Made by a program: the position numbers and the translations under genes
Notes under the pieces: model-generated
Told to the model about the DNA's origin: nothing
Database searches by the model: none
Seen by the model: the letters and a program-made list of their open reading frames with translations, nothing else
In this document: positions 29,746 through 45,017 of the stretch, in pieces
Numbering within the stretch: position 1 is the first letter of the stretch
How the letters are laid out: each line of letters opens with the position of its first letter
Source: Escherichia coli
GTDB taxonomy: Bacteria; Pseudomonadota; Gammaproteobacteria; Enterobacterales; Enterobacteriaceae
DNA length: 64,000 nt
Assembly (NCBI RefSeq): GCF_044324875.1
Contig: NZ_CP172185.1
Strand: one strand, 5' to 3'

Positions 29746-30500
<755 letters not shown>

Positions 30501-30604
30501 ATCAGCATACTTGTCCTTAGCCTTCTGCAGTGACAGCTGGTAGTACAGCGTGCTTCTGGCCAGCCCTGCAGCCTTTAACAGGTCAGACTGGCAGTGTCCG
30601 CACC

Positions 30605-31135
30605 TCAGGCTCCGGATGACTTTCGTTTTTTCTCCAGCTCCTGGCGCTTTTTTTCCAGGAGATGCTCCTGCATGGCTTTCAGATATGCATTTTCTGCGCG
30701 AAGATAACGCAGCTCATTCTTCATCTCTTCCGGCGTCATGTTTGCCTCGTTTTCATGGGTATCATCAGAACGGGTCATGCTTTTCTCCTTCCAGCGCCTG
30801 ATAAAGGCCTCATTACCAGATTTGCGGTAGCCTTTTATCCAGTTTTTAACCGTGTTGTGGCTGGGAATGTTAAACCGGGCAGCTACCCGGGGTAGAGACT
30901 CAGAATGCCCGAGAGCATAAAGAACCACGCAAAGTTTATCTTCAGGAGAATAGCTACGCTTGTGTCTGCAATCCAGTGCCCGAGGACCGTGAAGAAGAAA
31001 AAGATTAATCCAGTGTGAGAGGCTGGTGTGAGAAAGTTGAAAGAGTTTTGCCGTAGAAATGATGCCTGCATGACCGGCCAGGTAGTGATTTACAGCGGCA
31101 AGTTTTACTTCAAATGAATGTTTCATAAACTGCAC
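30605..31135 (-). CDS. IS3-family transposase OrfA (HTH plus leucine zipper)
   Basis: 176-aa ORF upstream of and out of frame with OrfB, typical of IS3 programmed frameshift architecture. Confidence 0.7.
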   Translation of the reverse strand: MQFMKHSFEVKLAAVNHYLAGHAGIISTAKLFQLSHTSLSHWINLFLLHGPRALDCRHKRSYSPEDKLCVVLYALGHSESLPRVAARFNIPSHNTVKNWIKGYRKSGNEAFIRRWKEKSMTRSDDTHENEANMTPEEMKNELRYLRAENAYLKAMQEHLLEKKRQELEKKRKSSGA

Positions 31136-35135: not shown

Positions 35136-35906
35136 GTGCCTGGTTTGAAGATTACGCTTTTGCAGCAACCACTGGTGTGGATGGATGGTCCTGCCAACCT
35201 GCGTCATTTTGATCGTCAACTGGAAGATATTACCGGACGCGATGTGATCGTTCTACCGGAGATGTTTACCAGCGGCTTTGCCATGGAAGCGGCAGCTTCG
35301 TCGCTAGCACAAGATGACGTAGTGAACTGGATGACAGCCAAAGCGCAGCAGTGCAATGCGCTGATTGCAGGCAGTGTTGCATTACAAACGGAGTCTGGTT
35401 CGGTTAACCGCTTTTTGCTGGTTGAGCCAGGCGGCACGGTACATTTTTATGATAAGCGTCATCTGTTCCGCATGGCAGATGAGCATCTGCATTATAAAGC
35501 GGGCAATGCGCGAGTGATTGTGGAATGGCGCGGCTGGCGTATTTTGCCGCTGGTGTGCTACGACTTACGTTTTCCTGTGTGGTCGCGCAATCTCAACGAT
35601 TACGACCTCGCCCTGTACGTCGCCAACTGGCCGGCTCCGCGCTCTCTGCACTGGCAGGCATTGCTGACGGCCCGCGCGATTGAGAATCAAGCGTATGTGG
35701 CGGGATGCAATCGCGTCGGCAGCGATGGCAACGGCTGCCATTATCGCGGTGACAGCCGGGTGATTAATCCACAGGGCGAGATTATCGCCACCGCCGACGC
35801 GCATCAGGCAACGCGCATTGATGCGGAGCTGTCGATGGCGGCATTGCGGGAATATAGAGAAAAGTTTCCGGCATGGCGGGATGCGGATGAGTTTAGGTTG
35901 TGGTGA
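35136..35906 (+). CDS. yafV: Omega-amidase (nitrilase/C-N hydrolase superfamily)
   Basis: ORF from a GTG start ([18 protein letters not shown]...); last conserved gene before the T6SS island. Confidence 0.9.
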
Positions 35907-35924
35907 GTGGGTGTTGTGTTTAGG

Positions 35925-36150
35925 GCCGGGGAGAGTCGGGCTAAGACTACGAAAGCCCGCTCCCCTGCGACCACTTTTATCATAGGAGTGTGGAAGCGCT
36001 TTTCCATCAATTGCGATGACGTCTTTATCATTTGATGAATGGCAATCTCGCATCCAGTTAATAAAGCATTCGTGAAATTATACTGAACGGATACAAGACA
36101 TAACTCTAATTATGGTGCCGTGAACAGGATTACCATTTTCAAAATTACGA
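35925..36150 (-). mobile_element. Internally deleted fragment of an H-repeat (ISAs1-family) element
   Basis: 35945-35970 matches the 3' end of the transposase ORF at 37380-37400 (acgaaagcccgctcccc), joined directly to sequence matching 38150-38370 (e.g. ttttccatcaattgcgatgacgtctttatcat shared); translation gives [27 protein letters not shown], cf. the full copy [27 protein letters not shown]. Confidence 0.55.
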
Positions 36151-36177
36151 TATTATTTGCAGTAATTATGTTATTAA

Positions 36178-36690
36178 TCATTGTGATATTTCCATCTCTG
36201 TGATTAATACCGGATAAGCATTTAATTGCAGAGTTTGCACGAAATTATCGCAGATAACTGGCAATAACAATAACCCATCAGCCCGCTGCTGTAATACCTC
36301 CATTCGTTCTACTGATTCAACATTAACAACCAAACCAAGGGCATTTAGCGATTTAAGGATCTCCAGATGTTCACTCATCCAGCGCAGAGAAAAAGGATCA
36401 TCACCAATTATAAAAACAGGCCCCCAGCCGGTTAATAACTGGCGTTTCATTACGGAGCCAGGATGAAGTCGAGTACATATTACAGGAAATACCCCCTGTT
36501 GCGATGGTTCCGATGATGTGGATAATTCAGAAATATTTTCCATTGTTAGTGAAGAATTAACATCCATTAATAATGGTGAAACAACCTCACTTTCCTTGCT
36601 AGTAATGGCTGCACTAATCTGAAAGGAAAATAACAATATTATTACGTACAAACTTATTTTTAACATAACACATTCAATCCGTTTATTCAT
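36178..36690 (-). CDS. Hypothetical protein with N-terminal signal/TM segment (possible orphan immunity protein)
   Basis: 170-aa ORF, N-terminal hydrophobic stretch LKISLYVIILLFSFQISAA; AT-rich; no recognised domain. Confidence 0.35.
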   Translation of the reverse strand: MNKRIECVMLKISLYVIILLFSFQISAAITSKESEVVSPLLMDVNSSLTMENISELSTSSEPSQQGVFPVICTRLHPGSVMKRQLLTGWGPVFIIGDDPFSLRWMSEHLEILKSLNALGLVVNVESVERMEVLQQRADGLLLLPVICDNFVQTLQLNAYPVLITEMEISQ

Positions 36691-36756
36691 GTTATAGAAT
36701 AATAATGCTATAAATCATCATTAATGTTCAATTATTTAATCACACAATTTAAAAAA

Positions 36757-37260
36757 TCATCGACCAATGTGAATTGGCAATGTACCACTCAAGTTAAAAT
36801 CACTGAATATTTTATCAATTTCTCTTGCAGTTTCTATATATTTAACCTCTTTCGTACTTGCATTATAAATAGCCCAAGCCTCGGGATGGGATGTTCCACC
36901 AAACCTTACAAAAAAACTTGATTTCATATTATTATATAAATTAACATCAGGAAAAGGATCTTCTCCAAAATTAGTAGTATTAAATAATGAAAGTTCGTAT
37001 CGCTTAGAAAATTCTGTTGGTAGGATAGCTTCACTGCCATCAATAGCATTCATCCAGAGTTTGTTACCATTATATTCCAACAATAATCTCTGTTTTGCAT
37101 GTGTCTTATCTCGTTCTTTAACGACAGCGAATACCTTTTTAACAACTTGCTGTGCGGATGGTCCTATTGTATTACCAAAAGCTGGCAACCCGATTTTGCC
37201 ATAAACACTCTCCTGAATGAAATAAATATCCGTTTTATCGGCCTCGACAATATCTACCAT
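36757..37260 (-). CDS. Hypothetical cytoplasmic protein (possible orphan immunity or toxin-tip protein)
   Basis: 167-aa ORF, AT-rich, no recognised catalytic motif; lies between the two H-repeat copies. Confidence 0.35.
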   Translation of the reverse strand: MVDIVEADKTDIYFIQESVYGKIGLPAFGNTIGPSAQQVVKKVFAVVKERDKTHAKQRLLLEYNGNKLWMNAIDGSEAILPTEFSKRYELSLFNTTNFGEDPFPDVNLYNNMKSSFFVRFGGTSHPEAWAIYNASTKEVKYIETAREIDKIFSDFNLSGTLPIHIGR

Positions 37261-37369
37261 TTATCCCTCCAAACAAGACCTGACTCCAGGACAAGAGCAT
37301 AGTGTGTAGTAAACACTTCATGCTCTTGCCCTGACCATTGAAATAACAACTTTCGTTTGTTTACTGTAC

Positions 37370-38530
37370 CAGGGCAAGATTACGAAAGCCCGCTCCCCGC
37401 AAGGACTGACGCCAGGTAGTTTCTGTCCATGGCTGCTTTTCGCATCTTACGTCTTAACCCTGCCTTGAATACCTTATCATTCGTCAAAATATTAATAGCA
37501 ATGTGCCGTATCCCTGAAAATAATTCTGCTGCGTTTCCTCTTCTTATTTTGCAGTCGTCTTCATTCATTACCACGTCCAGACGCCAGTGCAGCTTATTCT
37601 CCACGTGCCAGTGGTTTCGGATTGCTGTGGCGAACTTCTCTGCGGTTAAATCAGCAGAACTGATATAATATCTGACCGTCATTTCGGGCTCTTTCTTTTG
37701 TTCTGCTATTATTGACCGAAAGGAGACTGCCACGCATAATTTCTTCAGACCTTTCCATTCAAACGTGAAATCAATAAGTTCATCAGGGACATCGCAAACA
37801 ATATGAAGACGGATTTCTTCTCTGCCGTGACTCTTTTCACTCATTGCGTAACTGTCATGCTCTGGATTATTTAATTCTTTCAGTGGGAATTTTTCCTCAA
37901 AGGCTTTATTAAGCCGCCCCTGATTTCCTTTTACAGCGAATAAATAATCACCGCCCTGTTTTTGTATCTTCTCTGCAATATCTTTCTGGCAACCCATCGC
38001 ATCAGTTGTGATGATTTTTCCTTTAATATCCAGCATGTTAAGAAGTTCTGGGATAGCTGTAATCTCATTGGATTTCTCATCCGTCTTGATCTGTCCGATG
38101 ACCAGGCTGTGCATTGTTGAGAACGCACTAATGACATGAATCGCTCCCCTGCGGCGACTCTTGTCATAAGAGTGCCGGAGCGTTTTTCCATCAATTGCGA
38201 TGACGTCTTTATCATCTGAAGTATGGCAGTCTCGCATCCAGTTAATAAAGCACTCGTGAAATTTTGCAGGACTGATACAGGATACAACTCTGGCGATGGT
38301 ATCGTGAACAGGAATACCATTTTCAAAATCACCGTATTGTTTTAAAAAATCGAGATGTGTTTCCCCAAAATCCTCTATATCTTCCCAACCTTCTGCACCC
38401 GAAATAACGGCACAAATAGTCAACAGTAGAATATCCGACAATTTATGTTCCACTTTCCAGGCTTGTCTGTAATCGGGAATAACAGAAATATGCTCCATCA
38501 ATTTTTAAGTTCCATTTTGTTCCCCTTAAT
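37370..38530 (-). mobile_element. H-repeat (ISAs1-family) element, apparently intact
   Basis: Encloses a full-length transposase ORF; ends approximate, inverted repeats not resolved by eye. Confidence 0.6.
37380..38501 (-). CDS. ISAs1-family (H-repeat-associated) transposase
   Basis: 373-aa [50 protein letters not shown]... typical of Rhs-associated H-rpt proteins. Confidence 0.8.
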
Positions 38531-38810
38531 TATGTAAGGAGTATTTGATCATGTATAAGTAATAAAAAACAGCCTCAGGTAATGAGGAATATCTCAAATT
38601 TTAAACATAAAATGCGAATTATTTAGTACAAAAAAGCAGCGTTACGTGATCTTTCCCTGTGCCGGTACCTTTGTCGTTTAATCTGGCAGCTAAAGGCATA
38701 TTGTTTTCCTGTCTGGAATATCAGCGACAAAAAATTTAAAAAACGGTAAGGTGCTTAACTCAGTAATAATCACCTTACCGGACATCCTGATTTGTAGCCC
38801 AACAGGTTAA

Positions 38811-39821
38811 TCAAGTAACAGGGATAAACTGACCATCAATCAGCGAAAATACCGGAGCGTAATACCCCATACGCTCTTCACCACTTTCATCTGTAAAACG
38901 GTAAGTCAGTGGGGAATATATTGGTTTCGATTTATTATATAGCTGCACCATACGTCCACCATTCATAACCCGGACGGCATAATCGTCCCACCTGATGGGC
39001 TGCATTCTGGCTTTCCCTCCCTCCACATTATCTTTTGAGAAGAGTGAGAGTAATATGTCATCCTCAGAGTCACCGGTTGTGGCTGACCATGCCTTCAGCG
39101 CCTCTTTGTTATAAGCTTTCAGACGTGCCCTGTCCCGGCTACTGATGATGCTTGCCATTTCGGTATAGGCGGCTTTTAACTTCCGTAACTGCTCGTCGCT
39201 TCCGGTATAGGGGGTTGCCCGCGTCCAGGCCCATTCAGGAAGCCCTGTCACGGTAACTTTTTGAGTGAACTGATACACCTTCATCCCTTTCGGGAAATAG
39301 GTTTCATCAAAATAATCTGGATCAATAAATCCTGGCTCCGCCTGCTCAGCCAAAATCTCTTTCCGGATAACGGGATGCACGCTGTCTGGCCGGGCTTCAG
39401 GTATGCCCTGCTGGTTGATGGTCACTTTTATTGAAGAAAGCAGCGTTTCCTCCTGTTTAATAAAACGAACCAAATCCAGGCTGCATCCTGCTTTTGGAAA
39501 AAAACGCCCCCGTTCTTCCATACTGGCAGGCTTGTCAGAAAACCATCCTAATGCCCCAATCTCCAGACTGATTTCATTTTCTCCATTCGCCATCAGCATC
39601 ATGGCATTGGTGCTGGATATGGCCCCGGTTGAATCACCATTTGCCCGCCAGGCACTTCTTCGGTTACTGAACCCGAGGACGCCATTAGTCTTAATGGCAC
39701 AATATGACTCTTCAATATTAAACTTACTGCGAATTTTTTGCTGGTTATCGTTAGAGCAAAATCCAGTTCCCATAACAACTCCTGACAGTAAAATAACCGA
39801 TATTAAATGTTTTGCCTTCAT
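38811..39821 (-). CDS. Secreted protein, candidate T6SS immunity protein
   Basis: 336-aa ORF with signal peptide and cysteine at the end of the hydrophobic region (MKAKHLISVILLSGVVMGTGFC); immediately downstream of the candidate effector; AT-rich. Confidence 0.45.
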   Translation of the reverse strand: MKAKHLISVILLSGVVMGTGFCSNDNQQKIRSKFNIEESYCAIKTNGVLGFSNRRSAWRANGDSTGAISSTNAMMLMANGENEISLEIGALGWFSDKPASMEERGRFFPKAGCSLDLVRFIKQEETLLSSIKVTINQQGIPEARPDSVHPVIRKEILAEQAEPGFIDPDYFDETYFPKGMKVYQFTQKVTVTGLPEWAWTRATPYTGSDEQLRKLKAAYTEMASIISSRDRARLKAYNKEALKAWSATTGDSEDDILLSLFSKDNVEGGKARMQPIRWDDYAVRVMNGGRMVQLYNKSKPIYSPLTYRFTDESGEERMGYYAPVFSLIDGQFIPVT

Positions 39822-39887
39822 AATTATTCTCTCTCAAAAGGGGAAAATACTCATTATACTGTTCACTTTTAATTTCTGTAATATCAC

Positions 39888-41459
39888 TTAATAATCCATA
39901 CCTATCGTCCACGTTGTCACTGGCTTCGGCGGTGTTACTTTTTTCTCCACAGTGCGTTCTTTACCGTATAAATTAACCCGTAATGGTGAATCCTTTACCT
40001 CCATAGGATCACATAACTGCCACTCAACGGTATCTTTCTTCTCAGGTTTTTCGCTCTTTTCCTTCCCCTTTCCTTTTTCATCAACTTCACCATGAGACAC
40101 ATCAATCTTAAATTCAAACTTCCCTTTAATGCCGTCATGAAATAATGCTAGGTCCAGTCCGTCATCATGTGAATCAAATCCAAATCCAGCTTTCGCTTCT
40201 ATAGAGGCAGTCGCTTCGGCGGTCAGTTGTACAACAAAAACATTCGCCTCAAACGTCGCACTCACCACACCTTTTAAACCGAGCTTGATGTTACTTTCCT
40301 TTACATTAAACTCCCATTTTTTATCCTTTTCAGCGTATACTGCGCCAAGATCAAGATTAATCTCCGCTGAAATCTCGATATAGCATTCAACACTGGCTCC
40401 GTTTTTACGGAGATATTCACGACATCTGTTGACCAATGACTCGACTTTACAATATGCACATATAAATGAAATAATATCGAATCTGAACGACGCTTCAAAA
40501 AATGGGGCACCAAACAAACCATAAAAATGACAGGGGCCATCCTGGATATCGGTATATTGATAGGCATACGATATACCCAGTTTAACGGGTTCTATTTTTG
40601 CACTGAACAATGCATATTTGCGCGTACCATTATTATTGTCAGGATCTGGCGCAAAATATTTATTGACATTCTTGACCAGAGAGTCAATTCTTCCTATCTG
40701 TTCCAGTTGCTTTGTTTGTCGAAGTTTTTTTATCTCTTTTTCATATTCACTTGTGTGTTCAACATTAGCTATTTTTACGCCAAAATCGACAGTCAGGGAA
40801 GTCTTGTTTATCCACTCAAACTCAGCAGTGGTATTTGTCCAGCCGCTACGGAGTTTATTTTTATCCCTGGGCTTGGTGTTCTCCATTGCGTCCCTGGCTT
40901 TTATTCTTTCGTCACGCCGCTCTTTTACTGTTCTCGTCTGTTTTGATGACGAAATCTCATAGCTGAACCCTGTAGTAAACCTAATTTCCACTGTAGGATA
41001 AACATCAATTTCAACATAATTGCCACATTCGTAACAACTGTCAATTCTGACTGAATAATGGGCAGGTTCATAATGATTCTTAAGTGGAGAGGATATTGCC
41101 CCCAAATAATCCCATGGTACTCGAAATGTACCCATAGCAATTATTTCACCTTCAGACAAGTTATCATCCAAAGTGACCTTATTAGGTATTCCGAAAGGTT
41201 GCAGTATCTTATGATTATTTTCTGATTCTTCCTCTAACCATGCCTCATGTGTTCCACTTTTATCGCACTGGTAGGTAATGGTAATTATACCATCACATCC
41301 GGAACCATCATCCAGTAGCTTAAAACGCGCCACTCCTTCTTTTGACCAGAAATGTTTCTCGCCGGCCTCTGGAAAATCACTAATAACATCAAAAATACAT
41401 GGATCAGGAATGCCGCATTCCACACAGGGCTTTCCGGCTGTCGAAGATGGAGATGTCAT
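39888..41459 (-). CDS. Candidate T6SS cargo effector of unknown function
   Basis: 523-aa ORF downstream of the DUF4123 adaptor gene; Cys-rich N-terminus (CVECGIPDPC, CYECGNY), charged coiled-coil-like middle, Lys/Glu-rich C-terminus; no motif I recognise; AT-rich. Confidence 0.45.
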   Translation of the reverse strand: MTSPSSTAGKPCVECGIPDPCIFDVISDFPEAGEKHFWSKEGVARFKLLDDGSGCDGIITITYQCDKSGTHEAWLEEESENNHKILQPFGIPNKVTLDDNLSEGEIIAMGTFRVPWDYLGAISSPLKNHYEPAHYSVRIDSCYECGNYVEIDVYPTVEIRFTTGFSYEISSSKQTRTVKERRDERIKARDAMENTKPRDKNKLRSGWTNTTAEFEWINKTSLTVDFGVKIANVEHTSEYEKEIKKLRQTKQLEQIGRIDSLVKNVNKYFAPDPDNNNGTRKYALFSAKIEPVKLGISYAYQYTDIQDGPCHFYGLFGAPFFEASFRFDIISFICAYCKVESLVNRCREYLRKNGASVECYIEISAEINLDLGAVYAEKDKKWEFNVKESNIKLGLKGVVSATFEANVFVVQLTAEATASIEAKAGFGFDSHDDGLDLALFHDGIKGKFEFKIDVSHGEVDEKGKGKEKSEKPEKKDTVEWQLCDPMEVKDSPLRVNLYGKERTVEKKVTPPKPVTTWTIGMDY

Positions 41460-41480
41460 ATAATCTATCCGTTTGTCTTT

Positions 41481-42323
41481 TTATTGTGGGATAAATCCCA
41501 GTTCCTGTTGTGCAAGTTCATGTACCCGAATATGTCCCGGGTATGACTGATTGCTGAGTTGTTCATACCAGTCATCCGGAATATATCTGAGATCGATTAT
41601 ATTTTTTTTCAGTAATATAAGCGTCATTGTTCTGACGGAACGATCATCTGCTATATTTAATGACTGGCAAAAAGAGAAATAATCTTCTGCCAGAATTCGG
41701 GATGATTCAGCTTTTGATGAATCATCCCATCCGTTTTTATCTACATTTTCTTCGATAAATGCAGATAATATATCAAGATAATTATCCCGTGCCTTTCGTT
41801 CCAGTTGGCTATATTGTCTGTAACTCAGCGTCAGTTGTGATGGCCGTTCTGCCCTTATATTCATAGTTTCTGCGGGACGGACGGAAGAAAAATTATCCTC
41901 ACGACATTCTTCACCATAACGGGTACTTAGCTGTCTGACGGGACTGATAAAAGAAAGACGCTGGCGGGGGGTCAGAACTTCCACTAATACCCATATATTC
42001 CGGGGATCATAAAATCGCATGAGAACAGGTTTCTCCTGTTCGGGGATCCTAACCCACAGATAACGTCTGAAGTGTTGCTGTAGCTCACGCATGGATGACT
42101 CAGAAGTCAGATATATTCCCCATGGCGACGCCTTAACACTCAGCCATGCTTCAACCTCCGGAACGACTTCCACGAGATAGGGGGCTAGCGCGACCAGATC
42201 CAGTTGTATGGGTTCTGCATACAGACAACAGTGCGGGGGATTCACCTCGTTCAGAAAATCCAGCAATCCTTCCTCCACAGCGCCATCCACAATGGCGTAC
42301 TGCACGGGTGCCGTTTCCATCAC
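41481..42323 (-). CDS. DUF4123-family T6SS effector adaptor/chaperone (Tap/Tec-like)
   Basis: 280-aa ORF with the family's N-terminal YAIVDGA-type motif; start overlaps the vgrG stop (ATGA). Confidence 0.7.
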   Translation of the reverse strand: MMETAPVQYAIVDGAVEEGLLDFLNEVNPPHCCLYAEPIQLDLVALAPYLVEVVPEVEAWLSVKASPWGIYLTSESSMRELQQHFRRYLWVRIPEQEKPVLMRFYDPRNIWVLVEVLTPRQRLSFISPVRQLSTRYGEECREDNFSSVRPAETMNIRAERPSQLTLSYRQYSQLERKARDNYLDILSAFIEENVDKNGWDDSSKAESSRILAEDYFSFCQSLNIADDRSVRTMTLILLKKNIIDLRYIPDDWYEQLSNQSYPGHIRVHELAQQELGFIPQ

Positions 42324-44278
42324 TTATCCTCCTTCGGGCAGTGCGCCACAAACATTGTCCCGCTTCCGGCTGCGGCTTTCAGGATCACCGGGCGCATCGG
42401 CAGGATCACGTCTCCCGGACTGCCTCCGCCGTTAAGATTGATTTTCGCGCCCTTAATATCCACGCCGCCGGAATGGATCACCACAAATGAACCGCCCACC
42501 CGCAGACTGATTTTGCTGTCGCTCTGTAAAACAATATCGCCCTGTACGCTGATACCCAGCGCGCCGCTTATTTTCTGTGCCAGATCGCCTTTCACCTCCA
42601 GCCCCTGATTGCCCTCTGTCAGGCTGACATGGTCTTTGGTGGTTTTATGGTCCTGTTTACCTTCAACCGTCACTTTCCGGTCATTTGCCACCACCAGGGA
42701 TTCATCATGCCCGATGCTGACCGTCCGGTCATAGTTGACCCGCTTATCCTTGCTGTTCAGCACAACGACTTGCATATTTTTCTGTGCGTGCAGGTAAATT
42801 TCTTCCTTGTCCGTCGCGTCCTCGAACCGCAGTTCATTAAAGCCGCTTCCTTTATAGGTCTTCGATCGTATCGTCATCTGCGTCTTCGTCCCCGGCAGAC
42901 TCCCCGGCGAACGGTTGTCCTCATGGTACGTCCGCCCCATGATTATCGGCTGGTCCGGGTCGCCGTTCAGGAAGTCTACAATCACTTCCTGGCCGATGCG
43001 CGGTATCGCCAGGTTACCAAATCCCGGCCCCGCCCACGCCTGCGACACCCTCACCCAGCATGAACTCGCCTCCGTTGCCGGGTTATACCTGTCCCAGTGA
43101 AACTGCACTCGCACACGTCCGTGTTCGTCGCAGAAGATTTCCTCTCCCGCAGGACCGGTGACAATGGCGCTCTGTGGCCCGTCCACCTTCGGTTTGCTTT
43201 GCAGCCGTGGACGCCACGTCCGGTCCGCCGGTATCACCTCTAACTGATTTCCCAGCATGGTTCCTCTCCCCTGGCTGCCGTGCAGCGCCTGCGGCTGGTC
43301 CCCTGACAGAATACTCTGTACCACCTGCCATTCACGGTTCAGCATCTTCTGCGGATGCCCCGTCAGCGTAAACCGCGTTCCCGGCCACAGCTTCGGTGAA
43401 TTACTCTGCCCTGTGGCCTTTTCCGCATCACTGCGCAGGCTCTCCATCTGGTACAGCGTGAAATCCTTGCCGTGCTGTTCATCCTTGAACCTTCCCGGAT
43501 AATCAAATATCTCATACTGCTCCAGCTGTCCGTTCAGGTTCTCACCCTGCTGCTCATACATCCCCGGCCAGTCCGGCACCTTAAACGTGTAATCCTGGCT
43601 CTGCACCGACGACGGGCGGACATACGCCTCATAACGGAACATACTGACACACTCTGTCTCCGCTCCTGCCGATGTGTCCGGGTTAAACGGAAGCTCTCCC
43701 GCCTGTGACAGCCCCGCCACATCGTCGCACAGCGTCAGCTTCTGCTCCGGACTGTCCGCCGCAAACCGCTCAAAGAAGAAAATTCCCTCCTCCGCCCACA
43801 ACCGCGCCAGAAACGCCAGGTCGCTTTCCCCGTACTGGACACAGAACTCCCGCGCCGGATGGTCCTCATAAAACAGCGGTGTCCACTCCGTGACGCCGTT
43901 CTCGTTCAGTAACGTGGCCGATATCGTCCGGATATCCTGCTGCTGGAAGATACGGAAGTTCTGCCGCAGCCCGCACCGCCATAACGGCGGCTCAATACGC
44001 AGGTGATAACGCATCTGCCAGCCATTGTTCTCCTGCATGCCAAAACCCGCCACCACGCCGGTGACATAACGCAGCGGGATGACGCCCTGCCAGATGGTCA
44101 GCGTCGCCTTCTTCTCCAGCAGCATCTCCGCCGTCTGCATAAAAGAGTCGCTGGCAACATCCACACTCATCACAAACGGATAAGACTGGTTCTGGATTAA
44201 CCTGAAATGCACCACTGCAAAGGTGTCCGGCTCCTGGCCGTCAATCTCCAGCGTAAAGCGCAGACCTTTTAAGGACAT
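42320..44278 (-). CDS. vgrG: T6SS spike protein VgrG
   Basis: 652-aa ORF MSLKGLRFTLEIDGQE... with gp27/gp5-like VgrG architecture and C-terminal beta-helical repeats. Confidence 0.9.
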   Translation of the reverse strand: MSLKGLRFTLEIDGQEPDTFAVVHFRLIQNQSYPFVMSVDVASDSFMQTAEMLLEKKATLTIWQGVIPLRYVTGVVAGFGMQENNGWQMRYHLRIEPPLWRCGLRQNFRIFQQQDIRTISATLLNENGVTEWTPLFYEDHPAREFCVQYGESDLAFLARLWAEEGIFFFERFAADSPEQKLTLCDDVAGLSQAGELPFNPDTSAGAETECVSMFRYEAYVRPSSVQSQDYTFKVPDWPGMYEQQGENLNGQLEQYEIFDYPGRFKDEQHGKDFTLYQMESLRSDAEKATGQSNSPKLWPGTRFTLTGHPQKMLNREWQVVQSILSGDQPQALHGSQGRGTMLGNQLEVIPADRTWRPRLQSKPKVDGPQSAIVTGPAGEEIFCDEHGRVRVQFHWDRYNPATEASSCWVRVSQAWAGPGFGNLAIPRIGQEVIVDFLNGDPDQPIIMGRTYHEDNRSPGSLPGTKTQMTIRSKTYKGSGFNELRFEDATDKEEIYLHAQKNMQVVVLNSKDKRVNYDRTVSIGHDESLVVANDRKVTVEGKQDHKTTKDHVSLTEGNQGLEVKGDLAQKISGALGISVQGDIVLQSDSKISLRVGGSFVVIHSGGVDIKGAKINLNGGGSPGDVILPMRPVILKAAAGSGTMFVAHCPKEDK

Positions 44279-44452
44279 AATGACCTCCCTGATTTATTCA
44301 CGGACCAAATGATTCTTACCATGCAGCAAAGGGTGCCAGTGCAGCGTTACACTCATCTTTACATTTTCAGGTACGCTACCGCCCGGGTTTCCGGCATCCG
44401 CCATCTCCCTCATGAAAGCGTAACTCCTTACTGACACTCATTTTTTACACGT

Positions 44453-44488
44453 ACAAAAACAACATCCTGCACGAAGGCAGGATGTTGT
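44453..44488 (-). terminator. Hairpin terminator/attenuator between hcp and vgrG
   Basis: Minus-strand CAACATCCTGCC-ttcgtg-GGCAGGATGTTG followed by TTTTTG immediately after the hcp stop. Confidence 0.45.
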
Positions 44489-44498
44489 TGACTCAGAT

Positions 44499-45017
44499 TT
44501 ATGCTTCCAGCGGTGCACGCCAGTCATCGGCACCAGAAGTACCGGATTTGATGTGCTCCCACTCAACCTTACGGTATGCCAGTGATACTGCGAGCAATTG
44601 CGTAAACTCACGCTGTGCAGGGTCCTGGCAGTGCGGCATGTGCAGGTTCATGTCCACAATCGTCGCGTCAGTAAGACGTGTGGTGAAGTAGTGCTCCTGC
44701 TTGCCTTCAACTGAAGTACGCCACCAGTGCAGCTCCACTTTCGGCAGCATTTCACCGGAGGCCAGCGCGTTGTACAGCAGCGGAACGGCTTTGTTCAGCG
44801 CCACGGTGAAAATGAACGGTTTGTGCGCGCGCTGCCCGGAAGGTTGACCAGACTGTGGATCGGTTGGAACAGTAACGTTATGCAGAAACTCCTGCACCAG
44901 CATTTCATCTTCGTGTCCCTGCACGTAGATATTGCCGACAGAATCTGCGGTGAAAGCACCGGCAGTGATGTTCCCCTGGGTCTGACCTGTAATTGAAATG
45001 TAACATGGGGTTGGCAT
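44499..45017 (-). CDS. hcp: T6SS inner tube protein Hcp
   Basis: 172-aa ORF MPTPCYISITGQTQGNITAGAF... typical Hcp. Confidence 0.9.
   Translation of the reverse strand: MPTPCYISITGQTQGNITAGAFTADSVGNIYVQGHEDEMLVQEFLHNVTVPTDPQSGQPSGQRAHKPFIFTVALNKAVPLLYNALASGEMLPKVELHWWRTSVEGKQEHYFTTRLTDATIVDMNLHMPHCQDPAQREFTQLLAVSLAYRKVEWEHIKSGTSGADDWRAPLEA

What the first reader, a model, noticed from the sequence alone, without database searches (positions are those of the whole stretch)
36178..37260. Two small unknown ORFs bracketed by direct H-repeat copies, possible orphan immunity/toxin cassette
A 167-aa cytoplasmic-type ORF and a 170-aa ORF with an N-terminal signal/TM segment lie between the deleted H-rpt fragment and the intact H-rpt element, on the same strand as the vgrG cargo. 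T6SS and Rhs loci commonly accumulate orphan modules next to H-rpt elements, and the AT-rich composition again indicates foreign origin. Their function is unknown.
Basis: inference. Interest (0 to 1): 0.5.

Follow-up and report, generated by a model that had tools for sequence, protein, structure and literature searches.

The report
T6SS toxin-like gene with ICE-derived partner
At the far end of an E. coli type VI secretion island lie two intact, conserved small genes, one from an unnamed family that looks like a secreted antibacterial toxin and one borrowed from a conjugative element, and they probably work as a toxin and antidote pair, although nobody has tested this.

Summary
Both ORFs exist at the stated coordinates, on the vgrG strand, in 27-40% GC DNA, between an internally deleted H-rpt (ISAs1) remnant and an intact ISEc1.

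"Function unknown" is only half right. The 170-aa ORF (more likely 162 aa, starting at 36666) is a clear DUF2859/TIGR03765 "PFL_4695" protein. It has a signal peptide, a disordered linker and a thioredoxin-like fold without CxxC. Its nearest relatives outside E. coli all sit in complete MPF_G conjugative-element T4SS modules.

The 167-aa ORF is a short member of an unnamed family of about 190 aa, with no match in the domain libraries or PDB structures searched. Relatives lie directly after an orphan hcp, after tssBC inside a T6SS cluster, or in two-gene islets. In five of the six settings where it could be read, the neighbouring gene encodes a 145-157-aa four-TM protein.

The ORF167/DUF2859 pairing was found only in E. 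coli. Two deeply diverged alleles are both intact (dN/dS about 0.32). The pair follows three different hcp-vgrG cargo modules. ORF167 almost never occurs without ORF170, and ORF170 alone is a pseudogene.

Best reading: a T6SS effector-immunity cassette whose immunity slot was filled by an ICE gene (confidence about 0.45). SUKH was not supported.

The parts
36757..37260 (-). ORF167: short (167 aa) member of an unnamed, beta-rich protein family of about 190 aa; no signal peptide; candidate T6SS (probably Hcp-borne) antibacterial effector. A GGAGGG Shine-Dalgarno sequence lies 4 nt upstream.
36178..36666 (-). ORF170 (162 aa from the conserved ATG at 36666; 170 aa if started at 36690): secreted DUF2859/TIGR03765 (PFL_4695) protein of ICE origin, with a thioredoxin-like fold lacking CxxC; candidate periplasmic immunity partner of ORF167.
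35943..36158 (-). Internally deleted, 5'-truncated H-rpt (ISAs1-family) remnant, starting 19 nt downstream of ORF170 and ending about 35 nt from the convergent yafV stop.
   Evidence: Direct repeats D1 (201 nt, 84%) and D2 (23 nt, 96%) with the intact ISEc1. RefSeq annotates it as a partial ISAs1 transposase pseudogene. The corresponding copy is full length in the other allele.
37287..37333 (.). 47-nt palindrome (21-nt arms, 5-nt loop) whose arms both start with the ISAs1 terminal motif CAGGGCAAGA. It may be a collapsed IS with only its two ends left, lying 26 nt upstream of ORF167.
   Evidence: Inverted repeats I2 and I4. Pattern matches at 37287, 37320, 37370 and 38646. The right arm is homologous in the other allele, where an end-like CAGGGCAAGCG motif lies about 215 nt further upstream.
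37370..38659 (-). Intact ISEc1 (H-rpt, ISAs1 family) separating the cassette from the VgrG cargo in this strain.
   Evidence: 373-aa ORF. RefSeq names it an ISAs1-like element ISEc1 family transposase. Ends located. It is absent from this position in ETEC6335.
38811..45017 (-). Context: the hcp - vgrG - DUF4123/Tla1-like adaptor - 523-aa protein - 336-aa protein string, which the cassette terminates. The 336-aa protein has an N-terminal hydrophobic stretch ending in Cys and may be a lipoprotein.
   Evidence: ORFs. RefSeq names in E. coli 042. The adaptor has a weak, below-cut-off Tla1 match. The lipoprotein reading is from the sequence alone and was not tested.

Best explanation
The two ORFs form one conserved two-gene unit at the distal end of the E. 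coli T6SS-1 (aspV-side) island. It most likely works as a T6SS effector-immunity pair of mixed ancestry.

ORF167 is a 19-kDa protein with no signal peptide, from an uncharacterised beta-rich family. By inference, it would be loaded into the Hcp tube, fired into neighbouring bacteria, and act in the periplasm or at the inner membrane. No catalytic set of residues is conserved in the family, so a non-enzymatic, membrane-directed action is the best guess.

In other bacteria the gene next to a family member usually encodes a 145-157-aa four-TM inner-membrane protein, the presumed immunity protein. In E. coli that slot is occupied by ORF170. ORF170 is a Sec-exported protein with a thioredoxin-like fold and no CxxC, taken from the T4SS module of an MPF_G integrative conjugative element. 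By inference, it would bind and neutralise incoming ORF167 in the periplasm.

Shown here: the family assignments, the gene contexts, the linkage, the purifying selection and the co-occurrence pattern. Inferred: secretion, toxicity, the Hcp route and the immunity role.
For: 1. ORF167 family and T6SS. Five non-E. coli settings had readable flanks. In one the gene is 16 nt downstream of an orphan hcp (Hcp confirmed). In another it lies directly after tssB-tssC inside a T6SS cluster, among other effector/immunity-like genes.
2. Layout. In five of the six settings where the neighbouring gene could be read, it encodes a 145-157-aa protein with four predicted TM helices and almost no sequence conservation. 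In four it lies immediately downstream, abutting or overlapping the family gene; after the orphan hcp it lies convergent on the opposite strand. This is the pattern of the proven Serratia pair Ssp4-Sip4, and Ssp6-Sip6 has a similar layout with a smaller two-TM immunity protein (PMC12669606, PMC6889166).
3. All 31 family representatives are stand-alone proteins of 217 aa or less with no signal peptide, small enough for Hcp.
4. In E. coli the pair is co-oriented with, and terminates, three different hcp-vgrG cargo modules.
5. Two alleles are 76% identical at the DNA level, while the flanking yafV is 97.5% identical. Both alleles keep both ORFs intact, with dN/dS 0.316 and 0.321 (Fisher p = 8e-7 and 4e-6).
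6. ORF167 is in 554 genomes, ORF170 in 754, and both together in 553 of 5,426. The presumed toxin is thus almost never without its partner.
7. Where ORF167 was lost (CFT073/EC93 lineage), ORF170 carries a frameshift and a W-to-stop change.
8. ORF170 is exported, as expected for immunity to a periplasm-acting toxin.
Against: - No experiment exists, and no paper in the library mentions either protein.
- DUF2859 was found in no other T6SS or toxin setting. The nearest relatives that could be placed all lie in complete ICE T4SS modules between an SLT-type transglycosylase and TraD. ORF170 keeps every family-invariant residue, as if its original molecular function were retained.
- E. coli ORF167 lacks a segment of about 30 aa present in all long family members, and it lacks the usual four-TM partner. 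It may therefore be an inactive or repurposed form.
- Three of the five non-E. coli settings have no T6SS gene nearby.
- A dN/dS of 0.3 is only moderate constraint.
- The pseudogene argument rests on one lineage.
- ORF170 has no obvious Shine-Dalgarno sequence.
Confidence: 0.45

Rival explanations
1. The two genes have no joint function. ORF170 is a relic of an MPF_G conjugative element that once lay here or was captured between H-rpt copies. ORF167 is an unrelated orphan gene, possibly a disabled effector. Their adjacency is a by-product of IS-mediated rearrangement.
For: - ORF170's nearest relatives are all ICE T4SS genes, in a fixed SLT-DUF2859-TraD order.
- The pairing is unique to E. coli.
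- The cassette is embedded in IS debris.
- ORF170 is a pseudogene in about 200 genomes.
- ORF167 lacks a family segment of about 30 aa and the usual four-TM partner.
Against: - Relics should decay, yet both genes are intact in two alleles separated by dS 0.42-0.57, with dN/dS about 0.32.
- The listed records among the 553 genomes with the pair show both products, and the CDS tables of 042 and IHE3034 carry no pseudogene flag on either.
- No other ICE gene survives nearby.
- The unit keeps the same position and orientation behind three different cargo modules.
Confidence: 0.3
2. ORF167 is a genuine T6SS effector, but ORF170 is not its immunity protein. Self-protection would be unnecessary (the target is absent from E. 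coli, or is eukaryotic or another species) or provided elsewhere. ORF170 would have a separate role in the periplasm.
For: - The T6SS context of the ORF167 family.
- The partner in every other genome is a four-TM protein, not a DUF2859 protein.
- ORF170 retains the ICE-family invariant residues.
Against: - ORF167 and ORF170 co-occur almost perfectly, and ORF170 decays when ORF167 is absent.
- No four-TM homologue is encoded anywhere in the 64-kb window.
- ORF170 occupies exactly the position of the downstream partner gene in other genomes.
Confidence: 0.15
3. The unit is cargo of a former ISAs1 composite transposon, with a function unrelated to T6SS. One example would be a chromosomal DUF2859 decoy that interferes with incoming MPF_G conjugation (exclusion-like).
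For: - ISAs1 ends or copies flank the pair on both sides in both alleles.
- DUF2859 is a T4SS-module protein.
Against: - The pair is found at a single chromosomal site only, with a median of one place per genome.
- No target-site duplications were identified.
- This does not explain the T6SS links of ORF167's relatives.
- There is no precedent or test for a decoy function.
Confidence: 0.07

Closest known systems
TIGR03765 / Pfam DUF2859 (PFL_4695 family) proteins of MPF_G integrative conjugative elements (PFGI-1, PAPI-1/pKLC102-type elements, pEB102)
   Same: ORF170 scores well above the curated cut-off over the whole domain. It has the same length, signal peptide and variable linker, and it keeps all 22 invariant residues. 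It is 43-57% identical to enterobacterial ICE copies.
   Different: ORF170 is not in an ICE. It has no SLT gene upstream, no TraD downstream and no other T4SS gene in the window. Instead it follows ORF167 at the end of a T6SS island, is fixed at one chromosomal site, and exists as deep alleles.
Ssp4-Sip4 of Serratia marcescens (T6SS pore-forming effector with a four-TM inner-membrane immunity protein; PMC12669606)
   Same: - A small stand-alone effector with no recognisable domain.
- The adjacent gene encodes a four-TM membrane protein.
- Loci are mostly far from T6SS genes, but sometimes next to hcp or vgrG or inside T6SS clusters.
- This matches the ORF167 family outside E. coli.
   Different: Ssp4 is described as 13 alpha-helices plus one beta-sheet, with predicted TM helices. 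ORF167 is mainly beta with no hydrophobic segment. The Serratia member of the ORF167 family lies next to katG, not in the ilv cluster. In E. coli the partner is a soluble exported protein, not a four-TM protein.
Ssp6-Sip6 of Serratia marcescens (ion-selective pore-forming T6SS effector family of Enterobacterales; PMC6889166)
   Same: The same logic of small effector plus small downstream immunity gene, the same mix of contexts (isolated, orphan hcp, inside a cluster), and toxicity from the periplasm.
   Different: Nearly all listed Ssp6 homologues are 636-735 bp (about 212-245 aa), and Sip6 is 67 aa with two TM helices. The ORF167 family is 167-217 aa with partners of 145-157 aa. No E. coli or Morganella entries appear in the part of their homologue list that was read. 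Sequence identity could not be tested because Ssp6 is not held here.
TraF-type thioredoxin-fold proteins without CxxC in F-like conjugation systems (recalled from general knowledge, not tested here)
   Same: A periplasmic protein with a thioredoxin fold, no redox motif, and encoded in a T4SS module. This resembles what the ORF170 model shows.
   Different: No sequence relationship was tested. DUF2859 belongs to MPF_G systems, not MPF_F.

Membership tests
TIGR03765 / DUF2859 (PFL_4695 ICE protein), tested on ORF170 | HMM score above the curated cut-off, over the full domain | tested here: met
   120.6 bits against a 59.75 cut-off, profile positions 1-105 of 105. PF11072 at 2.4e-28.
TIGR03765 / DUF2859 (PFL_4695 ICE protein), tested on ORF170 | N-terminal signal peptide, variable linker, and the conserved C-terminal domain with the family-invariant residues | tested here: met
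   One hydrophobic segment at the N-terminus. Linker residues 25-64 are disordered in the model. All 22 columns that are invariant across the 28 aligned sequences, ORF170 among them, include P69, V70, G96-D97-D98, W104, N123 and Y159-P160.
TIGR03765 / DUF2859 (PFL_4695 ICE protein), tested on ORF170 | Encoded within an ICE or plasmid MPF_G T4SS module (SLT upstream, TraD coupling protein downstream) | tested here: not met
   All 7 ICE or plasmid loci examined have the order SLT (or an unnamed gene in that position) - DUF2859 - TraD. The window, 042, ETEC6335 and IHE3034 have ORF167 upstream and an H-rpt downstream, with no T4SS gene.
T6SS effector-immunity pair | The effector family is genetically linked to T6SS delivery genes (hcp, vgrG or the core cluster) | tested here: met
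   L005 lies 16 nt after an orphan hcp. L014 lies directly after tssBC. E. coli has it at the tail of three hcp-vgrG cargo strings. Three other settings are unlinked.
T6SS effector-immunity pair | An adjacent gene encodes an envelope-located protein, and the toxin is not found without it | tested here: met
   Four-TM partners in other genomes and the exported ORF170 in E. coli. Genome counts: 554 with ORF167, 553 with both, 754 with ORF170.
T6SS effector-immunity pair | T6SS-dependent secretion, toxicity in target cells, and neutralisation by the cognate immunity protein | not testable with these tools
   This needs secretome, competition and co-expression experiments. No paper in the library reports them.
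Ssp4-like pore-forming effectors | Alpha-helical fold with predicted membrane-spanning helices | tested here: not met
   The ORF167 model is mainly beta (three strands of 15-16 residues) with no hydrophobic segment. Ssp4 is described as 13 alpha-helices (PMC12669606).
Ssp6-like pore-forming effectors | Sequence homology to Ssp6 (about 212-245 aa), with an immunity protein of about 67 aa and two TM helices | tested here: inconclusive
   The size ranges barely overlap, the partner differs, and no E. coli or Morganella entry appears in the part of their homologue table that was read. No Ssp6 sequence was available for a direct comparison.
Redox-active thioredoxin superfamily (ORF170 domain) | Thioredoxin fold plus a CxxC active site | tested here: not met
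ISAs1 composite transposon | Two IS copies flanking the cargo, and evidence of mobility (several sites, target duplications) | tested here: inconclusive
   Flanking copies or remnants are present. However, the unit occurs at one locus only, and no target-site duplication was sought.

The most novel reading that the evidence does not exclude
ORF167 founds a new beta-rich family of small T6SS antibacterial effectors, widespread in Enterobacterales and also present in Burkholderia and some marine Gammaproteobacteria. In Escherichia, the usual four-TM immunity gene was replaced by a domesticated periplasmic component of a conjugative-element T4SS (DUF2859). That would be a first case of a conjugation-machinery protein recruited as T6SS immunity, and it would also give a first functional handle on DUF2859.
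Probability: 0.3. Interest if true: 0.6.

Novelty: new variant of a known kind. Interest (0 to 1): 0.45.

Why it matters
If the reading is right, it adds an effector family of unknown fold and mechanism to the T6SS repertoire of Serratia, Pantoea, Morganella, Yersinia, Citrobacter and pathogenic E. coli (042, IHE3034/ST95 and avian-pathogenic APEC lineages).

It would also show that immunity genes can be replaced by unrelated proteins taken from another secretion system's mobile element.

It would give DUF2859, a conserved but functionally blank component of PAPI-1/pKLC102-type ICEs, a testable binding activity.

If the rival holds, the locus is simply an IS-scrambled island edge carrying an ICE relic, and is ordinary.

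Tried and rejected
- **Profile libraries on ORF167 and relatives.** Pfam, NCBIfam, PADLOC and PHROGs gave nothing significant.
- **PDB sequence searches for both proteins.** These returned only noise.
- **ORF167 as a diverged copy of the SLT gene that precedes DUF2859 in ICEs.** Rejected: BLASTP E 0.45, and an HMM of the family finds nothing in seven ICE loci.
- **ORF167 as a peptidoglycan hydrolase, with DUF2859 as its inhibitor.** Not supported. No conserved Glu or catalytic set exists; only D101 is a conserved polar residue. Partners elsewhere are membrane proteins.
- **ORF167 family as Ssp6 or Ssp4.** Rejected on size, partner and fold as far as could be tested.
- **Broad genome and metagenome scans with family alignments.** The narrower scan gave only 8 loci. 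The metagenome scan was not run.
- **Rfam scan of 35800-38800.** No match.
- **Promoter and terminator scan.** Promoter-like sites were at chance level (7 found, 6.3 expected); the 3 terminator-like sites (1.2 expected) all lie inside the ORFs.
- **Literature.** Searches for both protein accessions, DUF2859 and PFL_4695 found no functional study.
Full report
**Where the window comes from.** The region is E. coli. It is 99.9% identical to EAEC 042 over 35900-37400 and covers the gmhA-fadE-ivy-yafV side of the aspV-associated T6SS island. Reading along the minus strand, the order is:
- hcp (44499-45017), then vgrG (42320-44278)
- a DUF4123/Tla1-like adaptor (41481-42323), then a 523-aa protein, then a 336-aa protein with an N-terminal hydrophobic stretch ending in Cys (a possible lipoprotein, not tested)
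- an intact ISEc1, then ORF167, then ORF170
- an H-rpt remnant, then the convergent yafV.

**Observation.** Both ORFs exist exactly as reported.
- The downstream remnant is a real H-rpt fragment in direct orientation. A 201-nt stretch is 84% identical to an internal part of the intact copy, and it is fused to a 23-nt copy (96%) of the IS right end.
- The intact ISEc1 runs from about 37370 to 38659.
- GC falls to 0.275-0.41 across the cassette. ORF167 is 0.347 and ORF170 is 0.38, against 0.52 for the window.
- One correction: ORF170 probably starts at the second ATG (36666, 162 aa). RefSeq uses that start, and in the diverged allele the upstream ATG is followed by an in-frame stop.
- The 162-aa ORF at 35565-36053, overlapping yafV and the remnant, is an artefact of reading through the IS fragment.

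**ORF170.** This protein is not unknown.
- It hits NCBIfam TIGR03765 ("PFL_4695 family integrating conjugative element protein") at 2.2e-35. The score is 120.6 bits against a 59.75 cut-off and covers the whole profile. It also hits Pfam DUF2859 at 2.4e-28. RefSeq already names it so.
- A profile search returned 824 DUF2859 proteins. The closest ones outside Escherichia are 43-57% identical and come from Citrobacter freundii, Erwinia psidii, Salmonella Redlands and one metagenomic contig.
- All four lie in complete MPF_G T4SS modules with the same order: topoisomerase III ... SLT-type transglycosylase - DUF2859 - TraD - DtrJ-like - RAQPRD - DUF3262 - DUF2976 - DUF3487 - DUF2895 - DUF3438 ... 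TraC.
- The Erwinia billingiae plasmid pEB102 shows the same SLT-DUF2859-TraD order. In a P. aeruginosa MPF_G plasmid the gene in the SLT position is unnamed.
- ORF170 keeps all 22 family-invariant residues.
- The AlphaFold model has a signal-peptide helix, a disordered linker (residues 25-64) and a confident domain (pLDDT above 90 from about residue 70).
- ORF170 is therefore an exported, redox-inactive thioredoxin-fold protein of ICE origin. Here it sits with no other T4SS gene.

**ORF167.** This protein has no match in Pfam, NCBIfam, PADLOC or PHROGs.
- The word-indexed search found only E. coli sequences, including a 68%-identical variant.
- The exhaustive search of 1.84 billion representatives found 31 proteins. 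They form a family of about 180-217 aa (alignment A1). None is fused to a larger protein.
- All members with a database name are called "hypothetical". They come from Serratia, Pantoea, Morganella, Erwinia, Yersinia, Citrobacter, Cedecea, Enterobacter, Burkholderia, Halopseudomonas and Marinobacterium.
- The conserved core is a G-x-D-P-x-P-x3-L-Y motif and an F-x4-G-G motif. The only near-invariant polar residue is D101, so no catalytic set is apparent.
- Both E. coli alleles lack a segment of about 30 residues that every long member has.

**Contexts of the ORF167 family.**
- In L005 the gene starts 16 nt after an orphan hcp. The Hcp identity was confirmed by TIGR03344 at 1.5e-12.
- In L014 the gene lies directly after tssB-tssC inside a T6SS cluster (tssM, tagF, tssA, tssBC ... 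impE, tssE). It is followed by a 145-aa four-TM gene and then further effector/immunity-like genes, including one that reads like a Cys-His amidase (my reading of the sequence; it has no NCBIfam match).
- In Serratia (next to katG), Morganella (between can and hpt) and a soil metagenome, the gene forms a small islet with no T6SS gene nearby.
- In five of the six settings where the neighbouring gene could be read, it encodes a 145-157-aa protein with four predicted TM helices. In four it lies immediately downstream, abutting or overlapping the family gene. After the orphan hcp it lies convergent on the opposite strand. These partners share architecture but almost no sequence.
- A sixth setting (Erwinia rhapontici) has no ORF of at least 110 aa next to the gene; smaller ones were not examined.
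- This is the layout of the experimentally proven Serratia pair Ssp4-Sip4, where Sip4 is a four-TM inner-membrane immunity protein. The same context argument was used by those authors for Ssp4 and Ssp6 homologues (PMC12669606, PMC6889166).
- The ORF167 family is not Ssp4, which is alpha-helical. By size and partner it is unlikely to be Ssp6.

**The E. coli pairing.** A family HMM for ORF167 finds nothing in the seven ICE loci. A DUF2859 HMM finds nothing in the 20 or so loci of ORF167 relatives. The two families meet only in E. coli. No four-TM homologue is encoded anywhere in the window.

Genome counts among 5,426 complete E. coli genomes (at least 80% of each query covered) are below.

| Feature | Genomes |
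|---|---|
| ORF167 | 554 |
| ORF170 | 754 |
| Both together | 553 |

- The roughly 200 genomes with ORF170 alone belong to one allele group at 96.7% identity (CFT073, clone D i2, EC93). In these, an IS630 remnant and a large beta-strand-repeat/Ig-like protein gene with two HTH regulator genes (probably the tos adhesin operon, by recollection) replace everything upstream, from about 25 nt before the ORF170 start.
- In that group ORF170 carries a 1-nt deletion at nt 152 and a TGG-to-TAG stop.
- A second, deeply diverged allele of the whole pair is 76% identical at the DNA level (68% and 74% at the protein level). It occurs in 12 genomes at the same site.
- Both of its ORFs are intact, with dS 0.57 and 0.42 and dN/dS 0.316 and 0.321 (Fisher p = 8e-7 and 4e-6). 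The adjacent yafV differs by only 2.5%.

The pair terminates three different cargo strings:
- vgrG - DUF4123 adaptor - 523 aa - 336 aa in 042 and the window
- vgrG - DUF6484 - DUF2169 - DUF4150 - PAAR-like - WD40 - TIGR02270-like - thioredoxin-like in ETEC6335
- vgrG - DUF2169 - PAAR-like - 96 aa in IHE3034.

It is therefore a constant terminal module beside variable cargo, not a by-product of one cargo type.

**IS structure.** In ETEC6335 the downstream H-rpt is full length (with an internal stop) and there is no ISEc1 upstream. In IHE3034 the upstream copy is frameshifted.

Just upstream of ORF167 the window has a 47-nt palindrome. Both arms begin with the ISAs1 terminal motif. In the other allele the right arm is homologous, and an end-like motif lies about 215 nt further upstream.

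The bracketing by ISAs1 sequences thus seems older than the present intact copy. The unit occurs at one locus only, and I found no sign of current mobility.

**Interpretation.** The evidence best fits a T6SS effector-immunity cassette of mixed ancestry.

ORF167 would be a small effector with no signal peptide, small enough to fit the Hcp lumen. It would act from the periplasm or on the inner membrane, as suggested by the membrane partners of its relatives. ORF170 would be a periplasmic protein captured from an ICE that took over the immunity slot.

The linkage, selection and co-occurrence data argue that the two genes depend on each other. They do not prove toxicity or protection.

The main rival is that ORF170 is an ICE relic and the adjacency means nothing. 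Supporting it:
- the strictly ICE-bound distribution of DUF2859
- the full retention of family-invariant residues
- the missing segment in ORF167
- the fact that the pseudogene argument rests on one lineage.

I put the effector-immunity reading at about 0.45, the relic reading at 0.3, and an effector with unrelated immunity at 0.15.

**Novelty and score.** The kind of system (a T6SS effector-immunity pair at an island edge) is well known, and one component belongs to a named family. What would be new is the effector family itself and the recruitment of a conjugation-module protein as its partner. Without experiments this remains a well-supported hypothesis, so interest is moderate at 0.45.

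Noticed in passing
window 37287-37333: A 47-nt near-perfect palindrome whose two arms both start with the ISAs1 terminal motif CAGGGCAAGA, 36 nt beyond the end of the intact ISEc1 and 26 nt before ORF167. It looks like an IS collapsed to its two ends. The diverged allele (L002 about 9750-9975) has the right arm and an end-like motif about 215 nt upstream.
   Followed up: partly
window 29778-31135: Two minus-strand ORFs (176 aa and 240 aa) that look like transposase orfA/orfB, possibly IS3-family, lie between yafJ and gmhA. E. coli 042 has no insertion there (L001 9099-9305).
   Followed up: no
L001 16793-19802 (E. coli 042), compared with window 38660-38810: 042 carries a second H-rpt copy interrupted by a group II intron (ltrA) between the intact ISEc1 and the 336-aa cargo gene. 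The window lacks this, so it is not strain 042 itself despite 99.9% identity across the cassette.
   Followed up: no
L003 8100-9512 and L032 9001-10407 (EC93 pCP127, CFT073): In the CFT073/EC93 lineage ORF167 is replaced by an IS630 remnant next to two HTH regulator genes and a large repeat-protein gene (probably the tos adhesin operon, by recollection). ORF170 is a pseudogene there (1-nt deletion plus a TGG-to-TAG stop). The EC93 'plasmid' pCP127 carries chromosomal genes yafV-ivy-fadE-lpcA.
   Followed up: partly
L004 8826-9318 (Salmonella Senftenberg record NZ_LN868946.1): A frameshifted ORF167-family gene (pieces of 59 and 131 aa) lies between sseK1 and rpoC. The record is labelled a plasmid but carries rpoBC and the thi genes.
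   Followed up: no
L030 14212-14475 and L002 12555-12818: In strains with the diverged allele, an 87-aa acidic ORF (WP_000027646.1) lies between the downstream H-rpt and yafV. It is absent from the window and may be another orphan small gene.
   Followed up: no
L030 17456-21797 (ETEC6335): The cargo upstream of the diverged cassette is a PAAR-like 547-aa protein, a WD40 beta-propeller, a TIGR02270-like 411-aa protein (87 bits, below the cut-off) and a 137-aa thioredoxin-like protein with a WCNNC motif. This is an uncharacterised VgrG cargo set.
   Followed up: no
L014 6608-10586: A metagenomic T6SS cluster carries, after the ORF167 relative and its four-TM partner, several small signal-peptide proteins and a 126-aa protein that reads like a Cys-His amidase (no NCBIfam match). 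It appears to be an array of several effector/immunity-like pairs between tssC and tssE.
   Followed up: no
window 42320-44278: The VgrG ORF is 652 aa. RefSeq flags the corresponding 042 gene as incomplete (missing its C-terminus), which bears on whether this T6SS cargo string is functional in this lineage.
   Followed up: no
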